From a virus (taxonomy: Duplodnaviria; Heunggongvirae; Uroviricota; Caudoviricetes), in the IMG/VR virus record IMGVR_UViG_3300028969_000089: a stretch of DNA of 7,379 bases. One strand, written 5' to 3'. Under the pieces are notes generated by a model. It ran no database searches. It was given only the letters and a program-made list of their open reading frames with translations, and was not told the DNA's origin. A program made the position numbers and the translations under genes. Position 1 is the first letter of the stretch; every line of letters begins with the position of its first letter. Positions 1 to 7,379 of this stretch are shown here, piece by piece.

Positions 1-82
1 AAATGTGGCCTGGCTGCACTCTGAAGTCACCGCATGGATGGCCGGGCGCATTGCCGGACGCAAACGGGGGTACGACGCATGA
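1..82 (+). CDS. 3' end of Vis/AlpA-family small DNA-binding regulator (5' truncated by window edge)
   Basis: Aligns base-for-base with 6744..6825, the 3' end of the complete 88-aa ORF 6559..6825. Reading frame ends at stop TGA 80..82, encoding ...[26 protein letters not shown]. Confidence 0.6.
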
Positions 83-117
83 TGATGCCCGCTCTGCAAA
101 AACTCCCTTTTTCTGGC

Positions 118-147
118 TTGCCTTTTTCCGGCATTTGCGGATATAGT
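118..147 (+). promoter_or_regulatory. Sigma70-like promoter, candidate early promoter of the left operon (P4 PLE equivalent)
   Basis: TTGCCT (118..123), 18-nt spacer, TATAGT (142..147), directly downstream of the vis stop. Identical hexamers at 6861..6866 and 6885..6890 in copy B. Confidence 0.4.
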
Positions 148-210
148 TTTTCCGCTGTCGCAAAATCGGCAGCCGGGCGTGAGAACCCGAGCAATTCACA
201 GGCGACATAT

Positions 211-232
211 GACGCGCCACGCGTCTTTTTTT
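211..232 (+). terminator. Intrinsic terminator-like hairpin in the leader
   Basis: GACGCG (211..216), loop CCA, CGCGTC (220..225), then seven T (226..232). Copy B keeps a GACGC/GCGTC stem plus T7 at 6954..6975. Confidence 0.45.
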
Positions 233-390
233 GTGTCGCAATCAATGCCACAGAGCGCCAGATTATGGTGTGGTGTGTGGTCAGTCGTGCAGATGGCATT
301 CCGTGCATCCTGCCCGCGTCCGCTCATTATGCCGCAGAGTCAATGGTAGCTCAGGCGGGGCAGCCTCCGGGCTGGCCGGTATCCTGTGAA

Positions 391-452
391 GCCGGTATTC
401 TCACCCCCGTCTGGGCTATCGCCATCGAGCGTGAGAACTCCGGCGATAGCGT
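391..452 (+). ncRNA. Candidate CI-like immunity RNA core (62-nt block identical in both repeat copies)
   Basis: The 62 nt at 391..452 are identical to 7125..7186 while the 10 nt immediately upstream and the sequence downstream differ. Contains a 9-bp stem GCTATCGCC (415..423) / GGCGATAGC (442..450) with an 18-nt loop exposing GTGAGAAC (431..438), and an upstream TTCTCAC (398..404) complementary to GTGAGAA. Confidence 0.35.
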
Positions 453-480
453 TATTTGCTATTCACAGGAGGCTGCCATC

Positions 481-678
481 ATGGCTACAACCCTTACCCC
501 CTCACACCCTGAATTTGTCTTTGTGTTTGCGGCTGTCCGTCGCGCAGACCGTCATCCCCGTATCTGTATGCTTCGCACCGTCGCCGGTGATGAACGCAGT
601 GCCCGCCGTTCCCTTGTCCGTGACTATGTGCTCTCCCTTGCTGCCCGTCTGCCGGTGGTGGAGGTGTCCCGTGCGTAA
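481..678 (+). CDS. Small conserved protein (65 aa) downstream of the CI-like block; function unknown (Kil/Eps position of a P4-type left operon)
   Basis: ATG 481 preceded by AGGAGG (467..472) with an 8-nt spacer. Copy B (7215..7379) differs at only three positions across the 55 aligned codons, all synonymous third-base changes (ACA/ACG, CCC/CCT, TGT/TGC). Confidence 0.55.
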
Positions 679-958
679 TAAAAAAGCCCCTCAGACCGTC
701 TCAGCGCGTCATGACGCCCGTGAACACCTCAGCATTGAGGCTTATCATAAGCTCAACCGTGCCAGCGCCGTATCCCAGTTTGTTGGGGGTGATTTGATTC
801 ACCGTGAACTCTCCGGCCTGCATCAGCTCTACATTCCGCATATTTTCAGCTACCTGAATGAAGATATTGATTTTGTGCTGAATGAGCTGAAAGCCAAAGG
901 CCTGTGCCGCGATTTTCTCGCCCAGCAGAAAGACCGGGGAGACAGGACGCATGTTTGA
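671..958 (+). CDS. Hypothetical small protein (95 aa), probably translationally coupled to the preceding ORF
   Basis: GTG 671 overlaps the upstream stop (GTGCGTAA) and is preceded by GGAGG (660..664). No in-frame ATG. The long 190-aa frame 386..958 would have to run through the conserved RNA block, so the short form is preferred. Confidence 0.4.
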
Positions 959-1011
959 TTTTCCCCAGCTCCACCACTTGCTCTTCCGGATACGTCCGGA
1001 GAAATCCTAAA

Positions 1012-1044
1012 AGCCCGCATGGCACAAGCTCTGCGGGCTTTTTT
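1012..1044 (+). terminator. Rho-independent terminator closing the upstream module
   Basis: Perfect 8-bp stem AGCCCGCA (1012..1019) / TGCGGGCT (1032..1039) with a 12-nt loop, followed by a T-run to 1044; A-run precedes the stem. Confidence 0.55.
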
Positions 1045-1088
1045 GTGTCTACCATTGTCCGAGGATATCCAGCTAAATCCAGTGATTA

Positions 1089-1140
1089 TTGGTATACGTT
1101 TAGGTATACGGTAGGATGTATACCTAAACGCGTATACCAA
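1089..1140. promoter_or_regulatory. Imperfect 21-bp inverted repeat with four GGTATAC/GTATACC heptamers upstream of int; candidate integrase or regulator binding region
   Basis: Left arm TTGGTATACGTTTAGGTATAC (1089..1109) and right arm GTATACCTAAACGCGTATACCAA (1118..1140) are reverse complements apart from one inserted base, separated by 8 bp, ending 20 bp before the int start. Confidence 0.4.
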
Positions 1141-1160
1141 TTCATGAAGGAGCGGCCACA

Positions 1161-2372
1161 GTGGCAAGAACGACACGCCCCCTGACCAACACAGAAGTTC
1201 TGCGCGCTAAAGCGTTAGAAAAGGATCTAACGTTACATGATGGCGATGGCCTTTTTCTGCTCGTTAAAACGAACGGTAAGAAGTTGTGGCGTTTCCGTTA
1301 TCAACGTCCAGCAACAAAACAGCGGACAATGATGGGGCTTGGTGCTTTCCCCGCCCTTTCACTTGCTGATGCTCGAAGGTTAAGAGCGGATTACCTTGCT
1401 TTGTTGGCTAATGGTATAGACCCACAAGTTCAAGCTGAATTTATCGAAGAACAACAACAGATAGCTCTAGACAGTATTTTTTCGACTGTTGCGACCAACT
1501 GGTTCCAGATAAAAAGCAAAAGCGTTACCCCTGATTACGCTAAAGATATATGGCGCTCACTGGAAAAAGACGTATTCCCTGCCATCGGGGAGATTCCTGT
1601 CCAGCAAATAAAAGCCCGAACACTAGTTGAAGCCCTTGAGCCAATCAAAGCTCGTGGAGCACTCGAGACAGTGCGCCGACTTGTACAGCGCATTAACGAG
1701 ATAATGATTTATGCCGTAAACACTGGTCTGATTGATGCCAATCCAGCATCAGGTGTTGGGATGGCCTTTGAAAAGCCCAGAAAACAAAACATGCCGACGC
1801 TGAGGCCAGAAGAATTACCAAAGCTGATGCGTTCTTTGTTCATGTCAAATCTGTCTGTTCCGACTCGCTGTCTCATTGAATGGCAGCTTCTGACTCTAGT
1901 GCGTCCTGCTGAAGCTTCCGGTGCTCGATGGGCAGAGATCGATCTCGATGCAAAGCTCTGGATGATTCCAGCCGAACGGATGAAGGCCAAACGAGAGCAC
2001 ATAGTTCCTTTATCCACGCAGGCATTAGAAATTCTAGAAGTGATGCAACCTATTAGCGCACATCGTGAGCATGTTTTCCCAAGCAGAAATGACCCTAAAC
2101 AACCAATGAATAGCCAGACTGCGAATGCCGCGCTTAAGCGCATTGGTTATGGTGGGAAGCTTGTTGCTCATGGATTACGTTCTATAGCAAGTACAGCACT
2201 AAATGAAGCTGGTTTTAATCCGGACGTAATTGAAGCGGCACTTGCTCACAGTGATAAAAATGAAGTTCGAAGAGCATACAATCGTTCAACTTACCTTGAA
2301 CAACGTATAGACTTGATGAATTGGTGGGGTGAATTTGTGCACAACCGCCACCGCCTCATGCAAGCGATTTAA
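1161..2372 (+). CDS. int: P4-type tyrosine integrase (site-specific recombinase)
   Basis: 403-aa ORF starting GTG 1161 with AAGGAG at 1147..1152. N-terminal arm-binding-type sequence (LHDGDGLFLLVKTNGKKLWRFRYQ) and C-terminal catalytic signature HGLRSIAS ... RAYNRSTY typical of P4-family integrases. Confidence 0.9.
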   Translation: MARTTRPLTNTEVLRAKALEKDLTLHDGDGLFLLVKTNGKKLWRFRYQRPATKQRTMMGLGAFPALSLADARRLRADYLALLANGIDPQVQAEFIEEQQQIALDSIFSTVATNWFQIKSKSVTPDYAKDIWRSLEKDVFPAIGEIPVQQIKARTLVEALEPIKARGALETVRRLVQRINEIMIYAVNTGLIDANPASGVGMAFEKPRKQNMPTLRPEELPKLMRSLFMSNLSVPTRCLIEWQLLTLVRPAEASGARWAEIDLDAKLWMIPAERMKAKREHIVPLSTQALEILEVMQPISAHREHVFPSRNDPKQPMNSQTANAALKRIGYGGKLVAHGLRSIASTALNEAGFNPDVIEAALAHSDKNEVRRAYNRSTYLEQRIDLMNWWGEFVHNRHRLMQAI

Positions 2373-2399
2373 TAAGATTGCACAGCAAAGGAGTCTTAA

Positions 2400-3758
2400 A
2401 TGCCAAATAACTACCATCAATACATCGAAGACGTTAGTGATGATATAAAGACATGTCTTGAAGGAATGGGATGCCAACCCATACTTTTTGTTGGATCGGG
2501 ATTAACCAAGAGATATCTTTCTGGCCCAAACTGGGAAGAACTTCTTCAGCAACTTGCTAATGAATGTCCTAACATCGATAAAAGATTTGCCTATTATAAA
2601 CAGAAATACCCCGAGTTGATTGATATCGGCAGTGTATTTTCTGATTCTTATAACGAGTGGGCATGGGGTGATGGAGAGAAAGAATTTCCAGCAGAGTTAT
2701 TTGATGCAGGCAATGAGCCAAGTATTTATTTTAAATACAAAGTATCTAGTATTTTCAACTCATTGTTACAAGAAAAAGAAATCGTAAACAACGGTGAAAT
2801 TGAACTTCTGAGAAAGATTCACCCTCATTCAATCATCACAACAAATTACGACAAATTACTTGAATCGATATATCCTGAGTTTACCCCCATTATAGGCCAA
2901 AAAATCCTTTACGCTAATCACGGTAGCATTGGTGAAATACTTAAAATACATGGTTGCTGCTCCACTCCTGAAAGCATAATAATAAACCGCGATGACTACG
3001 ATGACTTCATAAAGAAGAAGAAATATTTAAGCGCAAAACTGCTTACTTTCTTTGCTGAACACCCTCTTCTATTTATAGGTTACAGCGCAGAAGACTCGAA
3101 CATAAAAAACATACTATCTGATATTGATGAACTACTTTCAGAAAATGGAGATGTCATTCCAAATATATACATTTTAGAATGGACGAGCAAACAAAATGAA
3201 AGTGAATACCCACGCCGTGAACGGCTGATTCAAGTATCTGCAAACAAAAGCATTAGAATAAAAAGTATAGTAGCAAATGACTTCTCTTGGGTATTTTCAG
3301 CGTTTGGCGCGAACAGAGCACTTGATAACATAAATCCCAAATTATTGAGGGCACTTTTAGCTCGCACTTACGATCTCGTCAGAACTGATATACCTCGCAA
3401 TCCTGTCCAAGTTGATTACCGAGTTTTATCAAGCATTAGCGAGTCAGAAGGTGAATTAGCGAAATTATATGGTATCGCCACATCGTCAGATGGTATGGCA
3501 TTTAATGCCAGTTATCCTTTTACTTTAACCACGCTAGGGCAATCACTTGGTTTCAAAGGCTGGCATGATGCGAACAAACTATTAGAAGTAGTTAAAAACA
3601 TCACGAACGTAGACATCAAGACATTCGATAACAAATACCACTATGCAATAATGAACGGTGATGAGATTCAGTCCCATAGATATTCAAACTATCTTCGAGA
3701 ACTCCTCGAAAAGGTTAGGGATGGAGAGGAGTTTGAGTTAGGAATAAAGGCTCCATAA
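2400..3758 (+). CDS. SIR2-like (SIR2_2-type) putative NAD+-hydrolase, candidate standalone antiphage defence protein with an uncharacterised C-terminal domain
   Basis: 452-aa ORF with AAGGAG at 2388..2393. Motifs read directly: ILFVGSGLTKRYLSGPNWEELL (Gly-rich NAD pocket), ITTNYD (Asn149, codon 2844..2846), KIHG (His184, codon 2949..2951), LFIGYSAED. Gene is markedly AT-rich against GC-rich flanks and starts 25 bp after the int stop. Confidence 0.8.
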   Translation: MPNNYHQYIEDVSDDIKTCLEGMGCQPILFVGSGLTKRYLSGPNWEELLQQLANECPNIDKRFAYYKQKYPELIDIGSVFSDSYNEWAWGDGEKEFPAELFDAGNEPSIYFKYKVSSIFNSLLQEKEIVNNGEIELLRKIHPHSIITTNYDKLLESIYPEFTPIIGQKILYANHGSIGEILKIHGCCSTPESIIINRDDYDDFIKKKKYLSAKLLTFFAEHPLLFIGYSAEDSNIKNILSDIDELLSENGDVIPNIYILEWTSKQNESEYPRRERLIQVSANKSIRIKSIVANDFSWVFSAFGANRALDNINPKLLRALLARTYDLVRTDIPRNPVQVDYRVLSSISESEGELAKLYGIATSSDGMAFNASYPFTLTTLGQSLGFKGWHDANKLLEVVKNITNVDIKTFDNKYHYAIMNGDEIQSHRYSNYLRELLEKVRDGEEFELGIKAP

Positions 3759-3787
3759 TTATTCATATAGCCTTACTACTTTTTATG

Positions 3788-3809
3788 GCCGCTTTAATAG
3801 CGGCTTTTT
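3788..3809 (+). terminator. Rho-independent terminator after the SIR2-like gene
   Basis: Stem GCCGCT (3788..3793) / AGCGGC (3799..3804), loop TTAAT, then TTTTT (3805..3809), 30 bp past the stop codon. Confidence 0.55.
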
Positions 3810-3945
3810 CACAGCATTATTCATGCTTCTAGCACGATATGATGAACCGCAATAATCATAGCTAACAGGATTAATTTAAAGCATTACTCCTCGACTGAAG
3901 CGTGCTGTCATGCGAAAAAAATTTAAACTACCACGTTAGCGCGCA

Positions 3946-3964
3946 GTGCTTTCCCCGCCTCGCC
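3946..3964. other. Candidate cos site (P2/P4-type 19-nt cohesive end)
   Basis: GTGCTTTCCCCGCCTCGCC is the exact reverse complement of GGCGAGGCGGGGAAAGCAC, which I recall as the P2/P4 cohesive-end sequence. It lies between the cargo gene and psu, as cos does in P4. Confidence 0.6.
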
Positions 3965-4066
3965 CGCCCGCTTTGCGGGGCGGTTTTAATGCAGTTGCAC
4001 TGACACGCTCAGACCGCGCCGGGAATGGTGCGGTCTGCAGAAAATGAGGCAGGAAAACGCATGCAA

Positions 4067-4098
4067 AGCCATGCACCTTATCGATGCATGGCTTTTTT
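4067..4098 (+). terminator. Hairpin plus T-tract in the cos-to-psu spacer (terminator-like)
   Basis: 9-bp stem AGCCATGCA (4067..4075) / TGCATGGCT (4085..4093), 9-nt loop, T-run to 4098. It is oriented to stop plus-strand read-through into antisense psu. Confidence 0.35.
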
Positions 4099-4128
4099 CA
4101 GTAAAAACGGGCGGATTTTCGGGGAATT

Positions 4129-4701
4129 TTACACAGACTGACGTGATGCCAGTTGCGCACTTTTACGCGAAAAAATCATGTTCTGCGCAGGGGTGAATTT
4201 TTCACGGCTGTCATCCACCGAAGCCGCGTCAGGCCTGAATCCGATGGCCGTTAAAATGTCGCTATCCTGTGCGGAATAATTAATTTTTTCCCCCTTCGCA
4301 AGCCAGGACAGAAGGGCTTCACGCAGGGCATCTGTGGCACGCTGTATGGCACAGTTTCGGGCAATGACCGTCAGCTCACTGTAGCCCATCAGCTCCGGTG
4401 CCAGTGCCGCCGCCAGTGCTGTGCCGTGCTGCTGCATAAAATCATTCAGCCGGTCGCGGATGCTGATGTGCTGAACGGCTTCATGCGAACGAATATAACG
4501 ACCGGCGGCCTGATTCACCTGCCATTTTCTGACTTCGATAATATTGCGTAATTCGTCCAAGCGACTGACGTTTCTGCCTTCTCCTGACAGAAGCCGCAGA
4601 TATTCCTGTTCGGCCGCAGCCAGCTCATTTTTGCGTTGCAGCCATGCTGCTTTGTTATTCTGACAGGTGTCAAAGGCCTGCTGTAAGGCTGTGCTTTCCA
4701 T
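4129..4701 (-). CDS. psu: Polarity suppression protein Psu (P4 capsid decoration / Rho antagonist)
   Basis: 190-aa ORF whose sequence (MESTALQQAFDTCQNNKAAWLQRKNELAAAEQEY...) matches my recollection of P4 Psu in length and sequence. Last gene of the sid-delta-psu late operon. Confidence 0.85.
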   Translation of the reverse strand: MESTALQQAFDTCQNNKAAWLQRKNELAAAEQEYLRLLSGEGRNVSRLDELRNIIEVRKWQVNQAAGRYIRSHEAVQHISIRDRLNDFMQQHGTALAAALAPELMGYSELTVIARNCAIQRATDALREALLSWLAKGEKINYSAQDSDILTAIGFRPDAASVDDSREKFTPAQNMIFSRKSAQLASRQSV

Positions 4702-4774
4702 CGTTATCTCTTTCTCATCATGCTGAAGAATAAAAATACGGTGTGCGGCGACGGCCGGTGTTAACCGGCAGCCC

Positions 4775-5275
4775 TCATTCCAGACGCAGCGAATATGATT
4801 GTGTTTTTAACCGTACTGGCGGCAGTTCCTGTTTTTCATGCAGGCGTTCTGCCAGTTCGTCCGGTGTGACCGGGCGGACAATGAAGCGGTTGATGGTCTG
4901 AAGCGTTTTAAACACCAGACCACATCCCGGATCCGTGCACACATAAAAACGCTCGGTGACTTCCTGAGACAGACGCCGCGATGTTCTTGACAGTGCAAGG
5001 CCTTTACATCTCCGACAACAATATCCGGTAACAAGCATTCTTTTCGGGCGTTTCATACTGCCGGAGGCTGACGTCAGTGAATCGCGGTATCTCTGTTTGC
5101 CTGAAATGTATTCCATTCCTGAATCTTTACAGTCAGAGAAAAAGCTTTCACTCGCTTCAAATGTCGCAGAGCAATAAATATTCCGGCACTGTGCAATCAT
5201 TATCTTGGTGCCATCGTCCATGAAATGTGCGCGACGGGTGTGAGCAACATGTCCACACGACGGGCAGTAAATCAT
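4775..5275 (-). CDS. delta: Delta, Ogr/Delta-family zinc-finger late transcription activator
   Basis: 166 aa, the length of P4 Delta. Two Ogr-like halves each with Cys pairs (CPSC...CRNIYC and CCRRC...CTDPGC). Start overlaps the sid stop in an ATGA junction at 5272..5275. Confidence 0.85.
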   Translation of the reverse strand: MIYCPSCGHVAHTRRAHFMDDGTKIMIAQCRNIYCSATFEASESFFSDCKDSGMEYISGKQRYRDSLTSASGSMKRPKRMLVTGYCCRRCKGLALSRTSRRLSQEVTERFYVCTDPGCGLVFKTLQTINRFIVRPVTPDELAERLHEKQELPPVRLKTQSYSLRLE

Positions 5276-6006
5276 GACAGCAGTCCTCTGGCCTTAAGCT
5301 CTGCTCCCTGCTGGTCTATTTTGTCCTGCCACACCTTGCGCTGTGCCGGTGTGCCTGCCACCTCATAATCCATGTGCGGGAGTGTTGCCGCTGACAGTCC
5401 GGTCAGCCGGAGAACCGGCTCGCCGGTGAGGCTGATTTGCATCTGTTTAATTTTCTGTTCCAGCGATGATTTCACCTGCTGCATGACAGCCTTTTCCGGT
5501 GCGACGTAGCCCTGATGGCCGGTGGTGTTGGCGAGCGGATTTTCCTGTACCAGGATACTCAGATGCATTGCCCGGACAAGCGCCTCACAGGTTTCATTTA
5601 GGGCGTGTTCCAGCTCATGCTCTGCATACAGACTCAGAAGGTGATGATGTGCCTTCCGGTAGGCGGTGGCCGTGCTGTCACACGCCCCTTTCAGGCGTTC
5701 ACGTTCGAAATTCAGCACCACGGCCAGATTGTCATATTCCTGTACCAGCTCCCGGCGTGCCACGCGCTCAATGTGGCGCTGTTTCAGCTCGTCGCTCAGG
5801 ACACCACCGGCTGCACGAAAGGCCGTGCGCCAGTCGTCAGCGTCGTTTCCGTCGGCCTGCGCCAGCGCATTTTTTTCCTGCTCTGCCCGTTCAATGGCCG
5901 TGATGGTCTCATCCATCAGGCGGGCGTTCTCAAGATGAGCGGCTCTGGCCTTTTCCAGTTGTGCCAGCGCGGGTTGCAGATATTCAGGGATGGTGTTGTC
6001 AGACAT
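5272..6006 (-). CDS. sid: Sid, external scaffold / capsid size determination protein
   Basis: The ORF track extends to 6072, but the ATG at 6004..6006 (MSDNTIPEYL...) has a GGAG 6 nt upstream and gives 244 aa, matching P4 Sid as I recall it. The upstream ATG would overlap the predicted promoter dyads. Confidence 0.8.
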   Translation of the reverse strand: MSDNTIPEYLQPALAQLEKARAAHLENARLMDETITAIERAEQEKNALAQADGNDADDWRTAFRAAGGVLSDELKQRHIERVARRELVQEYDNLAVVLNFERERLKGACDSTATAYRKAHHHLLSLYAEHELEHALNETCEALVRAMHLSILVQENPLANTTGHQGYVAPEKAVMQQVKSSLEQKIKQMQISLTGEPVLRLTGLSAATLPHMDYEVAGTPAQRKVWQDKIDQQGAELKARGLLS

Positions 6007-6040
6007 TTTCCGGCTCCTCGTCACTTCAGGTTGAGAAAAT

Positions 6041-6096
6041 TGTGACGTACACCGGACAACAACACGACGCATTGCAGATGTGCCAGCCCTGACACA
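6041..6096 (-). promoter_or_regulatory. Candidate Psid late promoter with two Ogr/Delta-type TGT-N12-ACA dyads
   Basis: Dyads TGT-N12-ACA at 6041..6058 and 6079..6096, centres 38 bp apart. If the distal dyad is at -55 the start site falls near 6032, about 26 nt upstream of the sid ATG, and the proximal dyad near -17. Confidence 0.5.
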
Positions 6097-6175
6097 GGAG
6101 ACTCATCCTCAGACCGGCAAGCCAGGAAAAGGTCGCAGGAAAAACCGGCTTACTGTTTGTTTTTTTATATTTTAC

Positions 6176-6279
6176 TGTTCACCTCTGTTCACCATAAGAA
6201 AAAAGATAAGTAATACAGTAAGTTAAATGGTGAACAATCGCAGTAATGACTGTTCACCGTCTGTTCACCACTGTTCACC
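6176..6279. repeat. Iteron array: six TGTTCACC octamers (ori/crr-like replication element)
   Basis: Octamers at 6176, 6186, 6251, 6262, 6272 (direct) and 6229..6236 (inverted). Adjacent direct copies are spaced 10 to 11 bp, with an AT-rich stretch between the clusters. TGTTCACC is the repeat I recall as the P4 alpha-protein binding site in ori and crr. Confidence 0.55.
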
Positions 6280-6382
6280 CGCTCATGGACTTTTTGTGCT
6301 GTTTACTACTGTTTGTTTTTATTAATTCGCCGGGAATGAATAAGAAGAAACGATTTGTATTTCACTATAAAAATTACGAATT

Positions 6383-6412
6383 GCTTTAAGTGGCTTTAAA
6401 TGACTTTAAGTG
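6383..6412. repeat. Three tandem 10-bp repeats upstream of vis
   Basis: GCTTTAAGTG (6383..6392), GCTTTAAATG (6393..6402), ACTTTAAGTG (6403..6412): head-to-tail and helically phased. Confidence 0.4.
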
Positions 6413-6438
6413 GGAATGAACAAAAAACACACAGTCAT

Positions 6439-6456
6439 TGTAAGGCGGCCGGAACA
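6439..6456 (+). promoter_or_regulatory. Candidate activator dyad for the rightward late promoter upstream of vis (PLL equivalent)
   Basis: TGT (6439..6441), 12 nt, ACA (6454..6456). Placing it at -55 puts the start site near 6502, about 57 nt upstream of the vis ATG. No convincing -10 hexamer was identified. Confidence 0.25.
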
Positions 6457-6558
6457 AATCCCCCCTGTTGCGTCTGCCAAAAAGATTCACAAAATAAAGC
6501 GCTACCCGAAGCCGGACGGACTTATCCGGTGCTGTATGGACATTAACGAGGTAGCCCG

Positions 6559-6825
6559 ATGCAAGCTGTTTTTTCTTCCCCGTCTCCCTCCCCTGTGACG
6601 CCACTGATGCCGCTGCCGGACATCACGCAGGAGCGTTTTTTACGTCTGCCGGAAGTGATGCACCTGTGCGGCCTGTCACGTTCGACCATCTATGAACTCA
6701 TCCGTAAGGGGGAATTTCCGCCGCAGGTGAGTCTTGGCGGTAAAAATGTGGCCTGGCTGCACTCTGAAGTCACCGCATGGATGGCCGGGCGCATTGCCGG
6801 ACGCAAACGGGGGTACGACGCATGA
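6559..6825 (+). CDS. vis: Vis/AlpA-family small DNA-binding regulator / excisionase-like protein
   Basis: 88-aa ORF with an AlpA-type helix-turn-helix core ([43 protein letters not shown]). Position between the late promoter region and the early promoter matches P4 vis as I recall it. Confidence 0.75.
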
Positions 6826-6860
6826 TGATGCCTGTTCTGCAAAAACTCCCTTTTTCTGGC

Positions 6861-6890
6861 TTGCCTTTTTCCGGCATTTGCGGATATAGT
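6861..6890 (+). promoter_or_regulatory. Sigma70-like promoter, copy B of the candidate early promoter
   Basis: TTGCCT (6861..6866), 18-nt spacer, TATAGT (6885..6890); identical to copy A. Confidence 0.4.
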
Positions 6891-6953
6891 TTTTCCGTTG
6901 CCGCAAAATCGGCAGCCGGGCGTGAGAACCCGAGTATGTTATCGGCGACATAT

Positions 6954-6975
6954 GACGCGCCATGCGTCTTTTTTT
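6954..6975 (+). terminator. Leader hairpin plus T7, copy B
   Basis: GACGC (6954..6958) / GCGTC (6964..6968) with a 5-nt loop, then seven T (6969..6975). Confidence 0.4.
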
Positions 6976-7124
6976 GTGTCGCAATCAACGCCACAGAGCA
7001 CCAGATTATGGTGTGGCGTGTGGTTTGCCGTGCAGGTATGATCCTGTTCGCAATCGCATGTTATGCCTCTGAGTCAATGGTAGCTCAGGCGGGGCAGCCT
7101 CCGGGCTGGCCGGTTTCCGATAAC

Positions 7125-7186
7125 GCCGGTATTCTCACCCCCGTCTGGGCTATCGCCATCGAGCGTGAGAACTCCGGCGATAGCGT
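7125..7186 (+). ncRNA. Candidate CI-like immunity RNA core, copy B
   Basis: 62 nt identical to 391..452, flanked by diverged sequence. Confidence 0.35.
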
Positions 7187-7214
7187 CATTTACGCTGTTA
7201 TCGGAGGTTGCCTT

Positions 7215-7379
7215 ATGGCTACGACCCTTACCCCTTCACACCCTGAATTTGTCTTTGTGTTTGCGGCTGTCCGTCGCGCAGACCGTCATCCCCGTATCTG
7301 CATGCTTCGCACCGTCGCCGGTGATGAACGCAGTGCCCGCCGTTCCCTTGTCCGTGACTATGTGCTCTCCCTTGCTGCC
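7215..7379 (+). CDS. Small conserved protein, copy B (3' truncated by window end)
   Basis: ATG 7215 preceded by GGAGG. The 55 codons visible differ from 481..645 only at three synonymous sites. Confidence 0.5.

What the first reader, a model, noticed from the sequence alone, without database searches (positions are those of the whole stretch)
2373..3945. AT-rich cargo island between int and cos replaces the gop/beta/cII position of P4
The SIR2-like gene and the roughly 190 bp after it are visibly AT-rich (about one third G+C by eye), whereas psu/delta/sid and the leader modules are GC-rich and int is intermediate. Only 25 bp separate the int stop from the cargo ATG, suggesting read-through from the int promoter or a promoter inside the int 3' end. 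This is the signature of a swappable accessory cassette in an otherwise conserved satellite backbone.
Basis: partly seen in the sequence, partly recalled or inferred. Interest (0 to 1): 0.55.

Follow-up and report, generated by a model that had tools for sequence, protein, structure and literature searches.

The report
Known P4 satellite defence hotspot, SIR2 cargo
The AT-rich stretch is real. It is the already-described swappable "defence hotspot" of P4-like phage satellites, here holding one SIR2 gene that has been catalogued and cloned before, so the finding is correct but ordinary.

Summary
Observation confirmed. Window 2373-3945 is 37.4% G+C against 51.9% for the rest of the window (z about 10). 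It is the lowest 1573-nt stretch in the window. It ends one base before the P2/P4 cohesive end (cos, 3946-3964).

Interpretation supported. Many E. coli genomes carry the same backbone at ssrA at 95-98% identity. In four such elements with other cargo, homology breaks inside the int 3' end (about 2329-2338) and resumes at 3936-3940. Unrelated genes lie in between, and P4 itself has gop/beta/cII there. Every int-cos interval I measured is AT-rich (30.5-37.4%).

This is the psu-int hotspot next to cos described by Rousset et al. 2022. Their Table S1A lists this exact protein (WP_001133507, "SIR2_2"). Their plasmid pFR88 starts with the same sequence as window 2279 onward. pFR88 is listed among "additional tested systems", not among the validated defences.

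The cargo is an intact 452-aa stand-alone SIR2 protein. Its closest known relatives are the NADase domains of ThsA, DSR2 and KomC, and the aligned Asn149 and His184 are invariant. It matches the PADLOC candidate PDC-S25. It has a small winged-helix-like C-terminal domain and no conserved partner gene. Homologues sit on satellites, a Pf prophage, plasmids and islands.

It is probably an NAD+-depleting abortive-infection gene read with int, but neither point is demonstrated. Novelty: already known.

The parts
965..1160 (.). Attachment-site side of the element. It holds the last 12 nt of ssrA (965-976) and the int upstream region.
   Evidence: Window 965 onward aligns to L001 9001 onward. In L001, ssrA ends at 9012 and int starts at 9197.
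1161..2372 (+). Tyrosine integrase, 403 aa. It belongs to the type found in ssrA-integrated relatives and is 36% identical to P4 Int. It serves as the left homology arm of the hotspot.
   Evidence: Pfam Arm-DNA-bind_3, Phage_int_M and Phage_integrase. BLASTP against P4 Int. Identity to elements with other cargo falls from about 99% at the 5' end to about 80% in the 3' half.
2329..2338 (.). Left homology breakpoint, just after the codons for the conserved LMNWWG motif. The last ~12 Int residues and the stop codon change with the cargo.
   Evidence: BLAST end points 2329, 2329 and 2338 in three elements with other cargo. Alignment and Int C-termini.
2373..2399 (+). 27-nt int-cargo spacer with an AAGGAG Shine-Dalgarno sequence at 2388-2393. 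It contains no terminator.
   Evidence: Sequence. Terminator scan.
2400..3758 (+). Cargo gene: a 452-aa stand-alone SIR2 protein. The N-terminal ~300 aa form a SIR2 NADase-type fold. Residues 306-366 are invariant but poorly modelled. Residues 365-445 form a small winged-helix-like domain.
3787..3809 (+). Intrinsic-terminator-like hairpin (stem 3787-3793 / 3799-3805) followed by a T-run to 3809. It marks the end of the int-SIR2 block.
   Evidence: RNA fold of 3756-3830: -15.1 kcal/mol for the whole stretch, z -3.0. Homology to the Enterobacter kobei element stops exactly at 3809.
3810..3935 (.). 126-bp AT-rich orphan spacer with no ORF. In E. coli it is found only in the SIR2-carrying elements. 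It is absent from the E. kobei element, which has another gene there. Probably recombination debris.
3936..3945 (.). Right homology breakpoint, 6-10 nt before the cohesive end. It is sharp, with no identity gradient.
   Evidence: BLAST start points 3936, 3939, 3939 and 3940. Identity is 96.5-98.5% in the first 200-nt bin after the breakpoint. P4 bases 1-30 match window 3935-3964.
3946..3964 (-). cos 19-nt cohesive-end sequence, the reverse complement of P4 bases 1-19. The conserved cos region continues up to psu.
   Evidence: P2-like phages match 3938 to about 4005.
4129..6072 (-). psu (4129-4701), delta (4775-5275) and sid (5272-6072). This GC-rich helper-exploitation operon is the right homology arm.
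   Evidence: Pfam Psu and Ogr_Delta. 97.5% identity to P4.

Best explanation
Window 2373-3945 is the current occupant of the known defence hotspot of P4-like satellites, which lies between the integrase gene and cos/psu.

Shown here:
- The interval is a compositional island.
- It is bounded by a diffuse homology break inside the int 3' end and by a sharp break 6-10 nt from the cohesive end.
- Near-identical backbones carry unrelated genes there.
- The occupant is one intact gene with a Shine-Dalgarno sequence and an intrinsic terminator, followed by 126 bp of orphan spacer.

Inferred:
- Cassettes are exchanged by recombination that uses int on one side and cos-psu on the other as homology arms. 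Between genera, the whole att-int-SIR2-terminator block moves as a unit.
- The AT-richness reflects a promiscuous mobile gene that stays AT-rich in every host.
- The protein is a self-contained NAD+-depleting abortive-infection effector. Its N-terminal domain is a SIR2 NADase with the aligned Asn149/His184 pair. It is held inactive until the C-terminal part senses infection. That part comprises the invariant 306-366 segment and a MerR/excisionase-like winged-helix domain.
- The gene is transcribed mainly as the distal gene of the int transcript.
For: Composition.

Swapping:
- The backbone occurs in 2470 of 5426 complete E. coli genomes. The SIR2 cargo occurs in 7, all at this position.
- Other occupants are unknown proteins, a STAND-like ATPase and an ABC-3C/PDC-M68-like operon.
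- Breakpoints.
- Six int-cos intervals, including P4 gop/beta/cII, are 30.5-37.4% G+C. The cos-to-sid backbone next to them is 49-54%.

Module mobility:
- The E. kobei att-int-SIR2-terminator block is 88% identical, whereas psu, sid and vis are 67-70%.
- 14 E. coli genomes keep only the first 70 nt of the ORF as a scar.
- The window is 100% identical to L001 across the 200-nt bins covering 1565-3964, and 97.5-99.5% from there to about 6165.

Literature: the hotspot is described in PMC9122126 and PMC13586616. WP_001133507 is in Table S1A, and pFR88 begins with the same sequence as window 2279 onward.

Protein:
- SIR2_2, PDC-S25, and the SIR2 parts of the ThsA and LmuA models.
- Sequence matches to the SIR2 NADases of ThsA, DSR2 and KomC. 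His184 aligns with the His mutated in the inactive DSR2(H171A) entries.
- Foldseek top hits are ThsA, DSR2 and KomBC.
- N149, H184 and 86 other positions are invariant in 32 sequences that go down to 52% identity.
- No conserved neighbour gene across six contexts.
- The gene is AT-rich relative to its flanks in E. kobei, P. aeruginosa, Ewingella, Vibrio and Cohnella.

Expression: a 27-nt spacer with a Shine-Dalgarno sequence, no terminator before the ATG, and no consensus promoter. Sister cargos start 18 nt after the int stop or overlap it. A terminator follows the gene.
Against: - No defence phenotype is known. The same cassette, cloned as pFR88 with 121 bp upstream and relying on its native promoter, is listed only among the "additional tested systems" and not among the seven that protected against an eight-phage panel.
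- NADase activity is inferred from homology alone.
- Co-transcription with int is not demonstrated. The simple promoter scan also fails to find any promoter upstream of int, so its silence is weak evidence.
- The PDC-S25 profile (517 positions) matches only up to residue 376, so the C-terminus may differ from that candidate family.
Confidence: 0.75

Rival explanations
1. The SIR2 protein works for the satellite life cycle or host physiology rather than against phages. It might be a true protein deacylase or ADP-ribosyltransferase that modifies a host or helper factor.
For: RefSeq names some copies "NAD-dependent protein deacylase". No anti-phage phenotype was reported for pFR88. The gene is appended to int.
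Against: The nearest sequence and fold relatives are all defence NADases, namely ThsA, DSR2 and KomC, not deacetylase sirtuins. The gene sits in a locus where most tested occupants are defences. The family rides on unrelated mobile elements that share no life cycle: a Pf prophage, plasmids and islands next to a restriction-modification system.
Confidence: 0.1
2. The AT-richness is a local property of the cos-adjacent position, caused by mutational bias or by selection for bendable or H-NS-bound DNA near cos. It is not a mark of foreign origin.
For: Every occupant of the interval examined is AT-rich, whatever its genes. The 126-bp non-coding spacer is AT-rich too.
Against: The same gene family is 34-42% G+C in P. 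aeruginosa (flanks 62%), Cohnella (about 50%) and Vibrio (about 42%), far from any cos site. The composition step coincides with the homology breakpoints. H-NS silencing could well be a consequence, but it does not explain the origin.
Confidence: 0.08
3. The cargo is an inert or decaying passenger left by past recombination.
For: Scars of this gene exist in 14 genomes. One copy is interrupted by an IS5 element. The Ewingella elements are decayed, with a fragmented or uncalled int and only a delta remnant in one of them.
Against: The ORF is intact. It is 99.6-100% identical in the 7 E. coli genomes that carry it. It is conserved over its full length down to 52% identity, with 88 invariant positions including the catalytic pair. 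In Ewingella the SIR2 ORF stays intact while the satellite around it decays.
Confidence: 0.03
4. The cargo has its own promoter inside the int 3' end and is expressed independently of int.
For: Rousset et al. cloned hotspot systems "with their native promoters", and most of those that worked did so from them. A weak candidate exists: ATAAAA, 17 nt, TACAAT with the -10 at 2277-2282. The P. aeruginosa homologue has a 470-nt upstream intergenic region, so it must have its own promoter.
Against: The candidate matches only 8 of 12 positions, and relaxed hits occur at 1.6 per 100 nt across the window. Nothing passes the consensus scan between position 900 and the cargo ATG. The spacing to int is 26-28 nt in three genera, and sister cargos overlap the int stop. 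The pFR88 insert starts at 2279, inside that candidate -10, and gave no phenotype.
Confidence: 0.3

Closest known systems
P4-like satellite defence hotspot between psu and int, next to cos (Rousset et al. 2022, PMC9122126; 2026 follow-up PMC13586616)
   Same: Same locus, same flanking genes, same adjacency to cos, and the same variability between otherwise conserved elements. The exact protein (WP_001133507, "SIR2_2") is in their Table S1A. The cassette was cloned as pFR88.
   Different: Nothing essential. Details added here: the left breakpoint lies inside int after the LMNWWG motif, the right breakpoint lies 6-10 nt from the cohesive end, and an int-SIR2-terminator block is shared between genera.
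P4 gop-beta-cII (the occupant of this position in P4, NC_001609)
   Same: Same position between the int stop and cos. AT-rich (36.2%). Non-essential. Reported to protect against lambda and P1.
   Different: Three genes on two strands with no sequence relation to the SIR2 gene. P4 Int is only 36% identical to this Int.
ThsA of type I Thoeris (SIR2-SLOG NADase)
   Same: Best PDB sequence match and best PDB fold match for residues ~130-300. The Asn and His of the TTNYD and HG motifs are conserved. The PADLOC ThsA model hits at 1e-20.
   Different: Only the SIR2 part matches, profile positions 81-217 of 478. No SLOG domain and no ThsB/TIR gene in the locus. The activator therefore cannot be assumed to be gcADPR.
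DSR2 / DSR1 (single-protein SIR2 defences)
   Same: Single-gene architecture with an N-terminal SIR2 NADase and a C-terminal sensor. Sequence match E 5e-9 over residues 82-246.
   Different: DSR proteins are 1000-1200 aa with large helical sensor domains. This protein is 452 aa. The NCBIfam Dsr2 score is 14.6 bits against a cut-off of 1400.
PADLOC candidate system PDC-S25
   Same: Strong profile match, 2.1e-84, residues 12-376. A single-gene candidate.
   Different: It is a candidate only. I found no experimental paper. The last ~75 residues of this protein and the last ~160 profile positions do not align.

Membership tests
P4-like satellite psu-int defence hotspot | Lies between int and psu of an element with the P4 helper-exploitation genes (psu, delta, sid) | tested here: met
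   Pfam Psu, Ogr_Delta and integrase. 97.5% DNA identity to P4 from cos through sid, vis and cI.
P4-like satellite psu-int defence hotspot | Directly adjacent to the cos packaging site | tested here: met
   The variable region ends at 3936-3940. The cohesive end is 3946-3964.
P4-like satellite psu-int defence hotspot | Different gene content in otherwise near-identical elements | tested here: met
   Five E. coli elements, E. kobei and P4 carry different occupants. The SIR2 cargo is in 7 of the 2470 genomes that have the backbone.
P4-like satellite psu-int defence hotspot | The occupant protects against phage | not testable with these tools
   The published clone pFR88 is not among the validated systems (eight phages, native promoter, 121 bp upstream). 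A "single ThsA" P4 cargo was tested in PMC13586616, but I could not establish whether it is this gene.
SIR2 NADase defence effectors (general) | SIR2 fold with the catalytic Asn and His | tested here: met
   SIR2_2 4e-27. N149 and H184 are invariant and align with the TTNYD and HG motifs of ThsA and DSR2. Foldseek probability 1.0 to ThsA, DSR2 and KomC.
SIR2 NADase defence effectors (general) | Infection-triggered NAD+ hydrolysis | not testable with these tools
   This needs biochemistry or metabolite measurement.
Thoeris ThsA | C-terminal SLOG domain that binds the TIR-made signal | tested here: not met
   The ThsA profile matches only positions 81-217 of 478. Pfam finds only SIR2_2. The C-terminal model resembles winged-helix DNA binders.
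Thoeris ThsA | Adjacent thsB (TIR) gene | tested here: not met
   The only gene between int and cos is the SIR2 gene. No TIR gene appears in any of six homologue contexts.
DSR2 | Protein of ~1000 aa that reaches the NCBIfam equivalog score | tested here: not met
   452 aa. 14.6 bits against a cut-off of 1400.
SIR2-HerA (Nezha) | Adjacent HerA-type ATPase gene | tested here: not met
   No second gene in the interval. No HerA or DUF87 gene next to homologues.
PADLOC PDC-S25 (candidate) | Match to the PDC-S25 profile | tested here: met
   2.1e-84 over residues 12-376 against profile positions 10-358 of 517. The C-terminal part is unmatched.

The most novel reading that the evidence does not exclude
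The 452-aa SIR2 protein is a working, minimal one-protein NADase defence. Its sensor is the invariant 306-366 segment together with a MerR/excisionase-like winged-helix domain, which may read phage DNA or a DNA-bound state directly. In satellites it is wired into the int transcript, so its level follows the satellite's own Int/Vis regulation. The published negative test would then be an expression artefact: the clone had only 121 bp upstream, and judging from the primer overhangs the vector's Ptet side faces the antisense end.
Probability: 0.25. Interest if true: 0.45.

Novelty: already known. Interest (0 to 1): 0.2.

Why it matters
As a locus it adds nothing new. It is a textbook example of the P4 hotspot, and the cassette has already been catalogued and cloned. 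The value of this check is to stop the finding from being taken for a discovery.

Three small points may be useful:
- The cassette brings its own Int C-terminal tail, because the left crossover lies inside int. The right crossover is pinned within 10 bp of the cohesive end.
- The att-int-SIR2-terminator block moves as a unit between P4-like backbones that are only ~68% identical.
- The SIR2 family (PADLOC PDC-S25) is widespread, strongly conserved and still without a demonstrated function. The one published negative test may not have expressed it.

Tried and rejected
- **Chi-site idea.** I asked whether RecBCD entering at cos and a Chi site could set the left breakpoint. There is no exact Chi in the window, and one-mismatch hits are at chance level (6 found, 5.7 expected). 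Dropped.
- **Own promoter.** The consensus sigma-70 scan finds nothing between position 900 and the cargo ATG, and fewer sites across 900-4200 than in shuffles (3 against 6.8). A relaxed scan gives only 8-of-12 candidates. This is uninformative rather than negative.
- **Terminator scan.** The simple scan missed the hairpin after the cargo. The RNA fold shows it.
- **Membership in ThsA, DSR2 or SIR2-HerA.** Tested and not met.
- **Conserved partner gene.** None across E. kobei, Ewingella, P. aeruginosa, Pseudomonas sp. MH10, Vibrio and Cohnella. The 256-aa ORF downstream in P. aeruginosa and the 297-aa ORF in E. kobei have no Pfam or PADLOC match.
- **The \"single ThsA\" system of the 2026 NAR paper.** I could not establish whether it is this gene. 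No supplements are held, and the preprint text adds nothing.
- **Literature on PDC-S25.** One listed paper (two held the term) mentions it once, in an unrelated study.
- **The junction at window 965-969.** It is absent from all 5426 complete E. coli genomes, so the source of the tandem arrangement is unresolved.
Full report
**What is in the window.** It is a P4-like phage satellite.
- A tyrosine integrase is at 1161-2372 (+).
- A 452-aa SIR2_2 ORF is at 2400-3758 (+).
- psu (4129-4701), delta (4775-5275) and sid (5272-6072) are on the minus strand.
- vis/AlpA is at 6559-6825 (+), followed by the immunity region.

From about 3946 to the end, and again in 1-969, the window is 97.5% identical to P4 itself. 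Window 3946-3964 (GTGCTTTCCCCGCCTCGCC) is the reverse complement of the first 19 bases of the linear P4 genome, the cohesive end. Window 3965-4000 matches the right end of P4 perfectly. P2-like helper phages match only 3938 to about 4005.

**Check of the observation.** The interval 2373-3945 is 37.4% G+C against 51.9% for the rest of the window.
- It is the lowest 1573-nt stretch in the window (minimum at 2358).
- The best two-change-point segment is 2161-3930, z = 10.7.
- GC3 is 33.6% for the cargo, against 55-63% for psu, sid and vis. int is intermediate, at 46.7% overall and 39.6% GC3.
- Two small corrections apply: G+C is 37% rather than one third, and the spacer between the int stop and the cargo ATG is 27 nt, not 25.
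- The spacer contains AAGGAG six bases before the ATG.

**Is it a swappable cassette?** Yes, and this can be seen directly.
- The backbone occurs in 2470 of 5426 complete E. coli genomes. Only 13 genomes cover at least 80% of the window.
- The cargo DNA occurs full-length in just 7 genomes, all inside this backbone at the same place.
- In the elements I opened, all integrated next to ssrA, the int-psu interval holds different genes: the SIR2 gene; a 57-aa remnant plus a 293-aa unknown protein on the other strand; a 545-aa unknown protein; a 908-aa STAND-like ATPase; or a four-gene ABC-3C/PDC-M68-like operon.
- P4 has gop, beta and cII there.
- Homology between the window and the four elements with other cargo ends at 2329, 2329, 2338 and, in one case, 2469. 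It resumes at 3936-3940.
- All six intervals measured, including P4's, are 30.5-37.4% G+C. The cos-to-sid backbone next to them is 49-54%.

AT-richness is thus the norm for this position.

**Anatomy of the boundaries.**
- The left boundary is diffuse. Identity to elements with other cargo is about 99% at the 5' end of int. It falls to about 80% in the 3' half and vanishes right after the codons for the conserved LMNWWG motif. Each cargo therefore brings its own last 5-14 Int residues and its own stop codon.
- The right boundary is sharp. Identity is already 96.5-98.5% in the first 200-nt bin after 3939, which is 6-10 nt from the cohesive end.
- Against the SIR2-carrying strain 2018-10-1CC, the window is 100% identical in the 200-nt bins covering 1565-3964. 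It is 97.5-99.5% from there to about 6165 and 83-91% in the sid-vis intergenic region. A mosaic junction therefore lies at cos.
- In Enterobacter kobei the block from att through int and SIR2 to the terminator is 88% identical to the window (965-3809), while psu, sid and vis are only 67-70%. Homology stops exactly at the end of the terminator T-run, at 3809. A different gene then fills the space up to cos.
- The SIR2 unit proper is therefore about 2330-3809. Window 3810-3935 is a 126-bp orphan AT-rich spacer.
- Fourteen E. coli genomes retain only the spacer and the first 70 nt of the SIR2 ORF (85-87% identity), followed by another cargo. This is a scar of a past replacement.

**Already known.**
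- Rousset et al. 2022 (PMC9122126) described exactly this. P4-like satellites carry a hotspot between psu and int, next to cos, with more than 300 gene arrangements in 5,251 loci. P4's gop-beta-cII is one occupant.
- Their Table S1A lists \"SIR2_2 WP_001133507\" repeatedly. This is the accession annotated on the gene whose DNA is 100% identical to the window's cargo.
- Their Table S2B (\"additional tested systems\") lists pFR88, \"SIR2, P4, 1 gene, E. coli M605\". The displayed portion of its cloned sequence (about 400 nt) is identical to window 2279 onward, and the primer pair spans from there to the psu 3' end.
- Seven P4 systems gave resistance against an eight-phage panel, and pFR88 is not among them.
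- The 2026 follow-up (PMC13586616) confirms rapid swapping at this hotspot. [quoted passage not shown] I could not establish whether that is this gene.

**The cargo protein.**
- Pfam finds only SIR2_2, at residues 144-266.
- PADLOC gives the candidate PDC-S25 at 2e-84, covering residues 12-376. It also gives the SIR2 parts of ThsA, LmuA, Dsr1 and Dsr2.
- NCBIfam gives nothing above cut-off.
- The best solved relatives by sequence are Streptococcus equi ThsA, DSR2, Bacillus ThsA and KomC. The TTNYD Asn (N149) and the KIHG His (H184) align with their catalytic motifs. The His is the residue mutated in the DSR2(H171A) and KomC(H146N) entries.
- An AlphaFold model (pLDDT 74) gives ThsA, DSR2 and KomBC as top Foldseek hits.
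- The family is large, with 1747 hits below 1e-5, and is uniformly 450-460 aa. It is conserved end to end, with 88 invariant positions among 32 sequences down to 52% identity. These include N149, H184, the GSG loop and a striking LLRALLARTY.LVR.DIP segment.
- It is not ThsA, because it has no SLOG domain and no TIR partner. It is not DSR2, and it is not SIR2-HerA.

**Context elsewhere.** The closest homologues are in the same position of P4-like elements at ssrA.
- E. kobei (96% protein identity) has an intact element.
- Ewingella (91%) has a decayed satellite around an intact SIR2 gene.

More distant homologues sit in other mobile contexts.
- At the end of a Pf filamentous prophage in P. aeruginosa (73%).
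- In an integrase/AlpA island beside a type IIG restriction enzyme in Pseudomonas sp. MH10.
- In islands in Vibrio mangrovi and Cohnella.
- On plasmids, about half of them predicted conjugative, of Vibrio, Photobacterium, Bacillus and E. coli (44-48%).
- Distantly, in temperate phages of Gram-positive bacteria (PHROG 2695).

No neighbour gene is shared, so the protein is self-contained. The gene is much more AT-rich than its surroundings in nearly every host, for example 41.8% against 62% in P. aeruginosa. This argues that the composition belongs to the mobile gene and not to the cos-adjacent position.

**How it most likely works.**
- Shown: it is a swappable cassette in a conserved backbone, with breakpoints in the int 3' end and at cos.
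- Inferred, exchange: cassettes move by recombination that uses int and cos-psu as arms, and sometimes the whole att-int-cargo arm is carried along.
- Inferred, function: the protein is an NAD+-depleting abortive-infection effector, activated through its C-terminal part.
- Inferred, expression: the evidence leans towards co-transcription with int.
  - There is a 27-nt gap with a Shine-Dalgarno sequence and no hairpin before the ATG.
  - No consensus promoter lies between position 900 and the cargo ATG.
  - The same 26-28-nt spacing is found in three genera.
  - Sister cargos start 18 nt after the int stop or overlap it as ATGA.
  - A clear intrinsic terminator follows the gene at 3787-3809.
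- If that is right, pFR88 may not have expressed the gene. Its insert begins only 121 nt before the ATG, inside the best weak -10 candidate (TACAAT, 2277-2282). Judging by the primer overhangs, the vector's Ptet/RBS side faces the psu end, which is antisense to SIR2. The orientation is my inference.

**Verdict.** What remains open is whether this widespread SIR2 family (PDC-S25) is an active defence, what triggers it, and how it is expressed. Interest is low for the finding as stated.

Noticed in passing
window 1-969 (junction at 965-969): The window starts inside a second, truncated P4-like copy. It holds the vis 3' end, isrK, the C4 RNA, an Icd/Ash ORF (34-678) and epsilon (671-958), and is 89-98% identical to 6744-7379. 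It breaks off about 10 nt after the epsilon stop and is fused directly to the ssrA-3'-end/att-int of the SIR2 element. orf151, orf106, the alpha primase and crr are missing. None of 5426 complete E. coli genomes contains this junction.
   Followed up: partly
window 154-231, 339-426, 6884-6936, 6897-6974, 7073-7160: Rfam finds the P4 immunity RNAs twice each: the C4 antisense RNA (the P4 CI RNA) and isrK. It also finds one c4-a1b1 target.
   Followed up: yes
L002 2936-3005 (E. coli LSN03-016011/A) and 13 other genomes; window 2374-2469: Fourteen E. coli genomes keep only the int-cargo spacer and the first 70 nt of the SIR2 ORF (85-87% identity). It is annotated as a 57-aa hypothetical protein and is followed by an unrelated cargo. 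This is a scar of cassette replacement with a crossover inside the SIR2 gene.
   Followed up: partly
L007 6567-9408 (Enterobacter kobei) against window 965-3809: The att-int-SIR2-terminator block is 88% identical between the E. coli-type window and E. kobei, while psu, sid and vis are only 67-70%. The integrase therefore travels with the cargo between divergent satellite backbones. Homology ends exactly at the terminator T-run (3809).
   Followed up: yes
L003 2899-2902; L004 2884-2903: In sister elements the cargo on the int strand either overlaps the int stop codon (ATGA) or starts 18 nt after it. This suggests that hotspot genes in this orientation are generally read as the distal part of an int operon.
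   Followed up: partly
L008-L010 (P. aeruginosa), gene at 8001-9353 of L008: A 73%-identical homologue sits at the regulatory end of a Pf filamentous prophage (Zot, DUF2523, integrase). It is followed 34 nt later by a 256-aa ORF with no Pfam or PADLOC match. That ORF could be an accessory or partner gene specific to that lineage.
   Followed up: partly
SIR2 protein residues 306-366 (window 3315-3497): This is one of the most conserved stretches of the protein (LLRALLARTY.LVR.DIP, with many invariant residues). AlphaFold nevertheless models it at pLDDT below 50, both in the full-length run and in the C-terminal run. It may be an interaction or switch segment that needs a partner or an oligomer.
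   Followed up: no
window 6101-6500: This is the second AT-rich patch (34-41% G+C), in the sid-vis divergent intergenic region. It carries CTGTTCACC-type direct repeats at 6175-6193 and 6261-6279. The region aligns with the annotated P4 ori region, which carries its own ori repeats. It is also the most divergent backbone segment against strain 2018-10-1CC (83-91%).
   Followed up: no
window 5272-6072: The mechanical ORF for sid is 266 aa. P4 and RefSeq annotate 244 aa (735 nt), so the real start is probably the downstream ATG at 6006.
   Followed up: no
H1/H32, E. coli MEI4BO-21 (NZ_CM149565.1 1180315-1183087): In one of the seven E. coli genomes with this cargo, an IS5-like ISKpn26 element lies within the matched int-cos interval. 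Insertion sequences are reported to be rare in these hotspots.
   Followed up: no
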